Shown here: positions 6,023 to 9,000 of the stretch, piece by piece
How positions within the stretch are numbered: the first letter of the stretch is position 1
Layout: the number at the start of each line of letters is the position of its first letter
DNA from: Escherichia coli
GTDB lineage: Bacteria; Pseudomonadota; Gammaproteobacteria; Enterobacterales; Enterobacteriaceae
DNA length: 64,000 bases
Reading direction: 5' to 3' (one strand)
Assembly: GCF_965641715.1 (NCBI RefSeq)
Contig: NZ_OZ282453.1
Made by a program: the position numbers

Positions 6023-9000
6023 TAATGGCGTTAACCATGCGAGCGTGCCTGATGCGCTACGCTTATCAGGCCTACGAGACTCCTGCAATATATTGAATTT
6101 GCATGTTTTTGTAGGCCGGATAAGGCGTTCACGCCGCATCCGGCAAGAAGCTATAAGAAAAGGGCGGAGATCATCTCCGCCCTTTTTATTTCTGCAATCC
6201 GCAATTATCATCCCGCAGTTCTATACTTTTTGGGTCAACACGTAACGCTTTACAGGTGATTATCATGGGGCTTTTTGATGAAGTTGTCGGCGCCTTTCTG
6301 AAAGGCGATGCGGGGAAATATCAGGCGATTTTAAGTTGGGTTGAGGAGCAGGGTGGCATTCAGGTGCTGCTGGAAAAACTGCAAAGTGGCGGCTTAGGGG
6401 CCATTCTCTCAACCTGGCTGAGTAATCAACAGGGCAATCAACCAGTTAGCGGCGAGCAACTGGAATCAGCACTCGGCACAAACGCGGTATCCGATCTTGG
6501 ACAAAAACTTGGCGTGGATACCAGTACGGCTTCCAGTTTACTGGCAGAACAATTGCCGAAGATTATTGATGCGCTCTCACCGCAAGGTGAAGTGTCACCA
6601 CAAGCCAATAACGATCTGCTTTCCACAGGCATGGAACTACTGAAAGGGAAACTCTTCCGCTAAGCAAATGGGGAGCATGCAACCCGCGTTGCATCCCCCT
6701 TTTCCCTCGGGTGTTGTACTGATTTTTGAGCGGAATCGCGTTAGCATGGGTCAGGAACCAATCTACCTGGGGAACTCATGGCTATCAAACTCATTGCTAT
6801 CGATATGGATGGCACCCTTCTGCTGCCCGATCACACCATTTCACCTGCCGTTAAAAATGCGATTGCTGCAGCTCGCGCCCGTGGCGTGAATGTCGTGCTA
6901 ACGACGGGTCGCCCTTATGCAGGTGTTCACAATTACCTGAAAGAGCTGCATATGGAACAGCCGGGTGACTACTGCATTACTTATAACGGCGCGCTGGTAC
7001 AGAAGGCCGCTGATGGTAGCACCGTGGCGCAAACTGCTCTCAGCTATGACGACTATCGTTTCCTGGAAAAACTCTCTCGCGAAGTCGGTTCTCATTTCCA
7101 CGCCCTGGACCGCACCACGCTGTACACCGCCAACCGCGATATCAGCTACTACACGGTTCATGAATCCTTCGTTGCCACCATTCCGCTGGTGTTCTGCGAA
7201 GCGGAGAAAATGGACCCCAATACCCAGTTCCTGAAAGTGATGATGATTGATGAACCCGCCATCCTCGACCAGGCTATTGCGCGTATTCCGCAGGAAGTGA
7301 AAGAGAAATATACCGTGCTGAAAAGTGCGCCGTACTTCCTCGAAATCCTCGATAAACGCGTTAACAAAGGTACGGGGGTGAAATCACTGGCCGACGTGTT
7401 AGGTATTAAACCGGAAGAAATCATGGCGATTGGCGATCAGGAAAACGACATTGCAATGATTGAATATGCAGGCGTCGGTGTGGCGATGGATAACGCTATT
7501 CCTTCGGTGAAAGAAGTGGCGAACTTTGTCACCAAATCTAACCTTGAAGATGGCGTGGCGTTTGCTATTGAGAAGTATGTGCTGAATTAATCAGTGGACG
7601 GGCAAACAGCATAAACGCGTTTGCCCGCTTACTGATTATTGGTTTACTGCATATACAACCAGAAATTGCAGCGGTGCAGTAATGATGTCCAGCGTAACAG
7701 TCACTGGCAGTAATGCTGCGGAAACACCATCCGGAATGCCTCTGGGTGAATAGTATTCATAAAATCGCACTTTAAATGGATGGTAGAACGCCATCACCTT
7801 TGAGTAATCCATGTTTTTATTTTTCTCATGGATTGTGCCTTTTAGGTTTTCCAGTGACCTGGTACAGTGTTGAACACCACAGGCAAAACCATAATGCGTT
7901 GCCAGTGCCTTTTCTTCTTCGTTATTCCAGTAGTAGTAAAGCGATATTGTGCCGGTAAATTTCTTTTTCCCCGCATTTAAAACAAATCTTGCGTCATCAG
8001 CAACCTTAATATTGTGCCGGTTAAGTACTGGATCATTGAGCATCTTAACGATGTCATCGGCACCATCAGTGATAAGGTAATCCAGCGATTCCCCTACAAA
8101 AACATAGCCTTTTGTTCCATTACTATCTTTTGCCTGCGATAGCCCAGTGATGGTGTCTGACTGCGATTGATACTTTCCTGAACTACCCTTTGCGGTATGG
8201 GAAACCAGAGCATACGAGATACAGCCTGAAAGCATCAGTGCTAGTGGGAATAAACTGGCAGCCTTAAAAAATCCCTTAAAATTCAACTTCATGATTAATC
8301 CTTTAAACGAGTAGCTAAGCCGTTGAAAGCATACTCTTCTTTCCCTCCTGTTTAGCGCCTGCTCTCCCTTTTCAGATTTCTGCCCGATATAAGACCTTTT
8401 CTTATGAGGTGTTTTTTTGTGGACTAATATCTGTTGCAAGGCTATGGGTTCGCCCCGGCACTGGTTTATATCTCCGCCGTCGCGTTGATTGGCGCGCTCT
8501 CTTACATCCTGCTGGTGGGCGATGTGAAGCGCGTTGGATAATCTTTCAACTGTGGAATATGCGCCACACCACTGCGCATAATCCACTTTCTTAAAGCCGG
8601 TGCGGTCAGGCATCGGCTTTTTACTATCTTGCCGAAGAGTTTTAAACGCAGTTTGCGGGTGGCGCGCCAGTAAGCGGCGTTGCTCTTCTCCGGCTGTTTC
8701 AGGAACACCGCACGCAGAATCTCTGCGCTATCCAGCGCATAGCTAATCCCCTCCAGCGAGCTGGCGCTGATAAATCCCGCCGCTTCACCAATCAGAAAGG
8801 CGTTGTCCTTACCGCAGACAAAATCCTGCCAGCATGAGGGAAACAGCACTGTGCATTTTTCGCTTTTCACCGCTTTGCCAAACTGGAACTGAAAGGCGCT
8901 CATTTTCTCTTTCAGCGTCGCGAAACGCGTCTGACCGTCTTTCATTGGATAGGCACCGCCAAAGATAAAATAACCGTCTTTGCTGATACTCCATGAGTAA

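What the first reader, a model, noticed from the sequence alone, without database searches (positions are those of the whole stretch)
8293..8501. D-galactonate (dgo) operon absent between yidX and cbrA
In K-12 as I recall the map, dgoRKADT lies between yidX and cbrA(yidS). Here the yidX start and the cbrA stop are separated by only about 210 bp with no dgo remnants, so this strain either never had or has cleanly lost the locus.
Basis: partly seen in the sequence, partly recalled or inferred. Interest (0 to 1): 0.4.

Follow-up and report, generated by a model that had tools for sequence, protein, structure and literature searches.

The report
Known dgo operon deletion, phylogroup E
This E. coli strain lacks the five-gene D-galactonate utilisation operon because of a 4.75-kb deletion that O157:H7 and other phylogroup E strains share and that was catalogued in 2001, so it is real but ordinary.

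Summary
yidX (7636-8292, -) and cbrA (8502-9602, -) are 209 bp apart, whereas K-12 MG1655 has dgoRKADT between them.

Window 8428-8541 is the last 37 codons plus stop of dgoT, with 36 of 37 residues identical to K-12. The locus was therefore deleted, not never present.

Relative to K-12, exactly 4,750 bp are missing (K-12 3870552-3875301): dgoR, dgoK, dgoA, dgoD, dgoT codons 1-393, and the dgo promoter/operator.

An 80-bp probe across the junction matches 407 of 5,426 complete E. coli genomes, including O157:H7, O55:H7, O145:H28 and non-STEC phylogroup E strains such as GF3-3. The deleted DNA is present in 5,022 genomes, so the two states are almost mutually exclusive.

The literature already lists this segment as K-island #161 / K-loop #267, meaning K-12 DNA absent from EDL933 and Sakai. 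Phylogroup E is also reported to grow poorly on D-galactonic acid lactone.

One nuance may be new. The same junction, with an identical ~70-bp block of unusually divergent sequence around it, occurs in Escherichia sp. E1V33, which is only 92% identical to the window. This suggests the deletion allele moves between Escherichia lineages by recombination.

Verdict: already known, low interest.

The parts
7636..8292 (-). yidX (putative lipoprotein), intact, 218 aa
   Evidence: tblastn with K-12 YidX covers residues 1-218 at 98.6% identity. Annotated as yidX in GF3-3 and strain 110 at the same position.
8293..8427 (.). Retained yidX-proximal 135 bp of the yidX-dgoR intergenic region. The distal 141 bp of the K-12 intergenic, which includes the conserved TGTAGTACA / TGTACTACA inverted repeats, is gone.
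   Evidence: The blastn block ends at window 8427 = K-12 3875302. The conserved motif TTTTGTGATCTAA|ATTGTAGTACAAC, seen in five other genera, is cut exactly at '|'.
8427..8428 (.). Deletion junction: 4,750 bp missing relative to K-12 (3870552-3875301) and to PapRG-06-5
   Evidence: The junction is identical in GF3-3, O157 strain 110 and Escherichia sp. E1V33. There is no IS, no direct repeat and no microhomology beyond about 1 nt at the breakpoints.
8428..8541 (+). dgoT 3' remnant: codons 394-430 plus TAA. It has no start codon and an in-frame TAA lies immediately upstream at 8425-8427.
   Evidence: tblastn with DgoT residues 394-430, 97.3% identity, E = 4e-15. Codon-by-codon comparison. Pseudogene annotation in relatives.
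8392..8460 (.). Junction-linked block of unusually divergent sequence (about 36 bp left, 33 bp right). It is identical in the window, GF3-3 and Escherichia sp. E1V33, and shorter on the right in O157.
   Evidence: 9 of the 11 differences from K-12 in the remnant fall in its first 30 nt (P = 2e-4). 7 of 9 differences in the first 33 nt are third-codon-position changes. The 69-nt block is present exactly in E1V33 and GF3-3; O157 strain 110 matches only 8392-8452. No dgo+ genome matched either half of the 80-bp junction probe.
8502..9602 (-). cbrA (colicin M resistance, FAD-dependent lipid reductase), 366 aa allele. The K-12 TAG stop is TAT here, giving 12 extra C-terminal residues read through the dgoT remnant.
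   Evidence: tblastn with CbrA covers residues 1-354 at 96.3%. Translation of the C-terminus. The same 1,101-nt allele occurs in GF3-3 and in the dgo+ strains PapRG-06-5 and ATCC 11775, so it is not a consequence of the deletion.

Best explanation
The interval is the scar of one 4,750-bp deletion. It removed dgoR, dgoK, dgoA, dgoD, the first 393 codons of dgoT and the dgo promoter/operator. It left the last 37 codons of dgoT and 135 bp of the yidX upstream region.

This is the same allele that O157:H7, O55:H7, O145:H28 and other phylogroup E E. coli carry, listed as K-island #161 / K-loop #267. The window comes from a non-O157 phylogroup E-like strain that inherited it.

The breakpoints show no IS element, no repeat and essentially no microhomology. 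The deletion therefore most likely arose once by illegitimate recombination (inferred).

The functional consequence is inferred from the established Dgo pathway: DgoT for uptake, DgoD dehydratase, DgoK kinase, DgoA aldolase and DgoR repressor. With none of these, the strain cannot take up or catabolise D-galactonate. A side effect is that cbrA and yidX now lie in tandem on the same strand, 209 bp apart.

A secondary and less certain point concerns origin. The allele carries a ~70-bp block around the junction whose dgoT part looks like a functional but strongly diverged dgoT. The identical junction and block occur in a different Escherichia species. The allele was therefore probably exchanged between Escherichia lineages by homologous recombination, and later recombination with ordinary E. 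coli DNA eroded its foreign flanks down to a minimal linkage block.
For: Shown:
- K-12 gene order.
- Exact breakpoints and the 4,750-bp gap, and the same 4,750 bp relative to the closely related dgo+ strain PapRG-06-5.
- The dgoT remnant.
- The junction in 407/5,426 complete genomes, including named O157:H7, O55:H7 and O145:H28 strains.
- The deleted DNA in 5,022/5,426 genomes.
- GF3-3, the best match for this region at 99.7%, is ST10654, phylogroup E.
- Phylogroup E has a growth yield on D-galactonic acid lactone of 0.40, against 0.82-1.01 in the other groups (PMC3147056, Table 1).
- cbrA-dgoT adjacency in E. whittamii, Buttiauxella and Enterobacter shows the ancestral state.

For the secondary point:
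- Differences cluster at the junction and fall at third codon positions.
- Ala396 is invariant in 15 DgoT genes from other taxa but is Leu in the remnant.
- E1V33 (GCA_004211955.1) has the identical junction and the identical 69-nt block, although it is 92.3% identical to the window over 9.45 kb.
- O157 has a shorter right-hand block.
Against: Only 64 kb of this genome is visible, so a second dgo copy elsewhere cannot be excluded for this particular strain. Complete dgo operons do exist on conjugative IncF/IncI plasmids of E. coli, and the counts imply at least 3 genomes with both the junction and some dgo sequence.

No growth phenotype was measured here. The phylogroup E mean of 0.40 is not zero, so either some E strains keep dgo or the assay has background.

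For the recombination reading: the block is only ~70 bp, and its left half lies in an intergenic stretch that also varies among dgo+ E. coli. No donor with an intact dgoT of this haplotype was found. The direction of transfer between E1V33 and E. coli is unknown.
Confidence: 0.92

Rival explanations
1. The lineage never had dgo. The operon was instead inserted between yidX and cbrA in the ancestor of K-12-like E. coli.
For: Seen alone, the absence looks clean, and 'K-island' terminology invites this reading.
Against: A 37-codon in-frame dgoT 3' end remains at 8428-8541. The left breakpoint cuts a motif conserved across genera upstream of dgoR. cbrA-dgoT adjacency is present in E. whittamii, Buttiauxella agrestis and Enterobacter sp. 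ENT03. 5,022 of 5,426 E. coli genomes have the operon.
Confidence: 0.01
2. The operon is not lost but relocated: this genome carries dgo at another chromosomal site or on a plasmid.
For: A K-12-like dgoRKADT next to IS2 is carried on conjugative plasmids such as pMTY9754_NA1. 12 plasmid places matched the dgo probe. The arithmetic requires at least 3 genomes with both the junction and a dgo match.
Against: 404 genomes lack any dgo match and 407 carry the junction, so co-occurrence is rare. There are no Dgo homologues in the 64-kb window.
Confidence: 0.04
3. The deletion is a recurrent event at a hotspot and arose independently in O157, other E strains and E1V33, rather than being one allele.
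For: It is found in lineages as far apart as 92% nucleotide identity.
Against: The junction is identical to the base, and the flanking 61-69-nt haplotype, found in no dgo+ genome, is also identical. No repeats or microhomology exist that could direct recurrent identical breaks.
Confidence: 0.03
4. The deletion arose within E. coli phylogroup E and was inherited only vertically. The divergent block at the junction is damage or repair mutagenesis, or decay after the deletion, not foreign DNA.
For: The carriers named so far are phylogroup E or close to it. Ala396Leu in the remnant looks like post-deletion decay. The left half of the block lies in a naturally variable intergenic stretch.
Against: 7 of 9 differences in the first 33 nt of the remnant are synonymous third-position changes (P = 0.008 for third-position bias). 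They are confined to the first 30 nt, although the whole 114-nt remnant is equally unconstrained (P = 2e-4). The allele is also in E1V33, outside E. coli.
Confidence: 0.3

Closest known systems
K-island #161 (Perna et al. 2001, EDL933 vs MG1655) / K-loop #267 (Hayashi et al. 2001, Sakai vs K-12)
   Same: [quoted passage not shown] O157:H7 genomes carry the identical junction between yidX and cbrA.
   Different: The window is not O157:H7. It is 97.7% identical to O157 strain 110 and 99.7% to the phylogroup E strain GF3-3 over 7600-9700. Its right-hand junction block is 7 nt longer than in O157. I saw the island numbers only through a secondary paper (PMC2749873), not the 2001 tables.
Other natural dgo lesions in E. 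coli and Shigella
   Same: Loss of D-galactonate catabolism by damage to the same operon. Examples are IS1 insertions (H91, H122), strain P13-6 retaining only 55 bp (H130), dgoTAK absent in S. flexneri F6 (PMC3225857), and isolates lacking or pseudogenising structural dgo genes (PMC12288454).
   Different: Those are sporadic and strain-specific, and several keep dgoR. The allele here removes dgoR too, has a fixed junction and defines a large lineage (407 genomes).
dgoR loss-of-function mutations selected in the mouse gut
   Same: Same operon, and further evidence that D-galactonate use is under selection in the gut (PMC7064181).
   Different: Opposite direction. Those mutations derepress the operon and increase use of D-galactonate, whereas this allele abolishes the pathway.

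Membership tests
Phylogroup E / O157:H7-type dgo deletion allele (KI#161 / K-loop#267) | yidX and cbrA are direct neighbours, with dgoR, dgoK, dgoA and dgoD absent | tested here: met
   209-bp gap and no tblastn hits for DgoR, DgoK, DgoA or DgoD.
Phylogroup E / O157:H7-type dgo deletion allele (KI#161 / K-loop#267) | Same breakpoints as in O157:H7 | tested here: met
   Alignment with O157 strain 110 and GF3-3. The 80-bp junction probe covers 100% in 407 genomes at 95-100% identity, including many named O157:H7 strains.
Phylogroup E / O157:H7-type dgo deletion allele (KI#161 / K-loop#267) | The host genome belongs to E. coli phylogroup E | tested here: inconclusive
   The closest match for this region, GF3-3, is phylogroup E according to PMC8115903 Table 1. 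The Clermont markers (arpA, chuA, yjaA, TspE4.C2) are not in the window. Over 1-25,000 the best matches are all only 98.8-99.0% identical, and one of them is the dgo+ strain PapRG-06-5.
D-galactonate catabolic pathway (DgoT, DgoD, DgoK, DgoA, DgoR) | Presence of transporter, dehydratase, kinase, aldolase and repressor genes | tested here: not met
   Only DgoT residues 394-430 remain, and nothing else in the 64-kb window. The rest of the genome is not testable here.
D-galactonate catabolic pathway (DgoT, DgoD, DgoK, DgoA, DgoR) | Growth on D-galactonate as sole carbon source | not testable with these tools
   Only a literature proxy is available: phylogroup E has a low yield on D-galactonic acid lactone.
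IS- or repeat-mediated deletion | An IS copy, target-site duplication or flanking direct repeats at the junction | tested here: not met
   The junction and the pre-deletion flanks of K-12 and PapRG-06-5 show no IS, no repeats and no microhomology beyond about 1 nt. There is no Rfam match in 8100-8700.

The most novel reading that the evidence does not exclude
The dgo deletion is not simply a clonal marker of phylogroup E. It may be a single old or foreign allele that circulates among Escherichia species by homologous recombination, being found in E. coli phylogroup E and in Escherichia sp. E1V33 (GCA_004211955.1).

It would be recognisable by a ~70-bp linkage block at the junction that derives from a strongly diverged but once functional dgoT. 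Its spread and retention would imply positive selection for losing D-galactonate catabolism in some niche, the opposite of the derepression selected in the mouse gut.
Probability: 0.4. Interest if true: 0.35.

Novelty: already known. Interest (0 to 1): 0.14.

Why it matters
The finding places the window in the O157:H7-related part of E. coli, phylogroup E or close to it, and predicts a simple phenotype: no growth on D-galactonate.

The junction sequence (…GTGGACTAA|TATCTGTTGCAAGG…) is a specific single-amplicon marker for this allele. It matched 407 of 5,426 genomes and no dgo+ genome.

Biologically it is a small contrast. D-galactonate use is selected upward in mouse-gut evolution experiments, yet a whole successful lineage does without it. 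The possible cross-species sharing of the allele would be a neat example of a loss-of-function allele spreading by recombination, but it does not open a new question.

Tried and rejected
- **Structured RNA or regulatory element in the gap:** the Rfam E-value scan of 8100-8700 gave no match. The promoter/terminator scan was at chance level, with 1 of each against 0.5 and 0.9 expected. Small hairpins in the variable left block are not better than shuffles (z from -0.2 to -1.3; -2.2 on the + strand).
- **The 79-bp stretch 8309-8387 that matched extra places and plasmids:** this is simply part of the yidX-dgoR intergenic region carried along with plasmid-borne dgo operons, not a mobile repeat.
- **Plasmid dgo copy as donor of the divergent junction block:** rejected. 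Its dgoT codons 394-404 are 33/33 identical to K-12 and 24/33 to the window.
- **Fifteen dgoT loci from other taxa as donor:** none is closer than 25/33 except E1V33, which carries the deletion itself.
- **Two metagenome scans for an intact dgoT with the block haplotype:** 0 hits.
- **Exhaustiveness of the genome-contig scan:** it is demonstrably incomplete. It missed the E. coli type strain, which does match the pattern. Absence of E. marmotae, E. ruysiae, E. albertii and E. fergusonii from its output therefore means nothing.
- **CbrA 12-aa extension as a consequence of the deletion:** rejected, because dgo+ strains PapRG-06-5 and ATCC 11775 have the same allele.
- **Literature search for 'E1V33':** no papers found.

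Full report
**What is at the coordinates**

The window is the origin-proximal part of an E. coli chromosome. ORF listing and the annotation of near-identical RefSeq genomes give these genes: gyrB 3611-6025 (+), yidB, yidA 6778-7590 (+), yidX 7636-8292 (-), cbrA 8502-9602 (-), yidR, yidQ, ibpA, ibpB and yidE.

**Comparison with K-12**

blastn of window 7000-10000 against this K-12 segment gives two collinear blocks:
- window up to 8427 aligns to K-12 up to 3875302 (98.0% identity);
- window from 8428 aligns to K-12 from 3870551 (95.8% identity).

Exactly 4,750 bp of K-12 (3870552-3875301) have no counterpart. That segment contains dgoR, dgoK, dgoA, dgoD, codons 1-393 of dgoT, and 141 bp upstream of dgoR.

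The left breakpoint falls right after TTTTGTG(A/G)(T/A)CTAA. This is immediately before the ATTGTAGTACAAC…TTTGTACTACA inverted repeats, which are conserved upstream of dgoR in Buttiauxella, Atlantibacter and Enterobacter.

**A remnant proves deletion**

tblastn with the K-12 Dgo proteins finds nothing for DgoR, DgoK, DgoA or DgoD in the whole 64-kb window. It does find DgoT residues 394-430 at 8428-8538, with 36 of 37 residues identical and E = 4e-15.

The frame runs to a TAA at 8539-8541 and is preceded by an in-frame TAA at the junction, so it is a dead 3' fragment. RefSeq annotates the same stretch in GF3-3 and strain 110 as a pseudogene 'missing N-terminus'.

cbrA lies next to dgoT in Escherichia whittamii, Buttiauxella agrestis and Enterobacter sp. 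ENT03. The operon is therefore ancestral at this site.

**How common it is, and whether dgo sits elsewhere**

A 2.1-kb probe (7600-9700) is contiguous in 413 of 5,426 complete E. coli genomes. In the rest it splits at the junction, with dgoT annotated next to cbrA.

An 80-bp probe centred on the junction matches 407 genomes, always at full length and never at half length. The carriers include:
- many O157:H7 strains;
- O55:H7 (CB9615, DEC5B);
- O145:H28 (RM12581);
- non-STEC strains from humans, poultry, baboons and fish.

The deleted K-12 DNA (4.6 kb) is found in 5,022 genomes and is absent from 404. Junction and operon are thus almost mutually exclusive; the arithmetic requires at least three genomes with both.

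The best match to this region is GF3-3 (99.7%). Its source paper assigns it to ST10654, phylogroup E.

**What the literature already says**

PMC2749873 defines K-islands and K-loops as segments present in K-12 but absent from O157:H7 EDL933 and Sakai. [quoted passage not shown]

Sabarly et al. (PMC3147056, Table 1) report D-galactonic acid lactone as a carbon source that separates phylogroups. The yield is 0.40 in group E, against 0.82-1.01 in A/B1, B2 and D.

PMC12288454 notes that several isolates lack structural dgo genes. The absence and its phenotype are therefore known, and the finding is a correct re-discovery.

**Mechanism and consequence**

I compared the junction with the pre-deletion sequence of K-12 and of PapRG-06-5. 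PapRG-06-5 is a dgo+ baboon isolate whose flanks are as close to the window as any carrier's, and it shows the same 4,750 bp. The comparison shows no IS element, no direct repeats and no useful microhomology. I infer a single illegitimate-recombination event.

The pathway needs DgoT for uptake, then DgoD, DgoK and DgoA. This is established knowledge of D-galactonate catabolism. A carrier without a second copy should not use D-galactonate. That step is inferred and was not measured here.

The deletion also places cbrA and yidX in tandem on the minus strand. No convincing terminator or promoter was detected between them, and there is no Rfam match. Read-through into yidX is possible but untested.

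**An unexpected detail**

The window's differences from K-12 are concentrated at the junction. Nine of the eleven differences in the 114-nt dgoT remnant lie in its first 30 nt (P = 2e-4). Seven of those nine are synonymous third-position changes. The other two make Ala396Leu, at a position that is Ala in 15 dgoT genes from other taxa.

About 36 bp to the left of the junction is also diverged, although that stretch varies among dgo+ E. coli too. This haplotype is absent from K-12, from PapRG-06-5, from the type strain ATCC 11775, from the plasmid-borne operon and from every other dgo+ genome in the collection.

A degenerate-pattern scan of one genome per species returned Escherichia sp. E1V33 (GCA_004211955.1). 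This genome has the identical junction and an identical 69-nt block, yet it is only 92.3% identical to the window across 9.45 kb. The chance of zero differences in 69 nt at that level of divergence is about 0.004.

O157 strain 110 has a shorter right-hand block, reverting to K-12-like bases at 8454 and 8457.

My reading is inferred, at roughly 40-60% confidence. The allele derives from a diverged, once functional dgoT. It has been exchanged between Escherichia lineages by homologous recombination, and its flanks have been eroded to a minimal block that cannot be separated from the deletion.

I could not find the donor. Two metagenome scans gave nothing. The genome scan is demonstrably incomplete, since it missed the E. 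coli type strain that does match the pattern.

**Verdict**

The feature is an already catalogued lineage marker with a known phenotype, so interest is low. The possible trans-species history of the allele is the only part that might be new.

Noticed in passing
window 8502-8540 (cbrA 3' end): The cbrA stop codon is polymorphic. K-12 and O157 strain 110 have TAG at the position equivalent to 8538-8540. The window, GF3-3, PapRG-06-5 and ATCC 11775 have TAT, giving a 366-aa CbrA with 12 extra residues ([12 protein letters not shown]) and a 40-nt overlap with dgoT or its remnant. The causal base is a synonymous change in dgoT codon 430 (GGC to GGA).
   Followed up: yes
L021 (AP026488.1 pMTY9754_NA1) 3100-8300; also CP084536.1, NZ_AP022088.1, NZ_CP128940.1: A complete K-12-like dgoRKADT operon sits next to IS2 on conjugative IncFIB/IncI plasmids of E. 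coli. It is 97% identical to K-12 and includes about 110 bp of the yidX-side intergenic region. The operon is therefore occasionally mobile and could restore the pathway in deletion carriers.
   Followed up: partly
window 9929-10129 (yidR), compared with L003 and L016: In this 200-bp stretch O157 strain 110 is 99-100% identical to Escherichia sp. E1V33, whereas the window is about 90-92% identical to both and 97-100% identical to PapRG-06-5. The cbrA-yidR region is a mosaic of haplotypes shared across Escherichia species.
   Followed up: partly
window 1-25000: The best matches among 5,426 complete E. coli genomes are all only 98.8-99.0% identical, and one of them (PapRG-06-5) is dgo+. The window's own genome is not in that collection, and its lineage is not closely represented there.
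   Followed up: no
E. coli genome hits H91, H122, H130, H190: Other independent lesions occur at this locus: IS1 insertions inside the dgo operon (LH13-b, OZ547117); O141:H4 strain P13-6, which retains only 55 bp of the probe; and strain LR-46, whose yidX upstream region matches only up to window-equivalent 8361.
   Followed up: no
window 8392-8418: The variable stretch left of the junction contains a short inverted repeat in each lineage: ATAAGA…TCTTAT here, GCAT…ATGC in K-12, and AGAAC…GTTCT in ATCC 11775. The predicted hairpins are weak and not better than shuffled sequence, so their significance is unknown.
   Followed up: partly
window 11491-11563: Relatives annotate a ROSE RNA thermometer upstream of ibpA at this position. 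This is an expected feature and was not examined.
   Followed up: no
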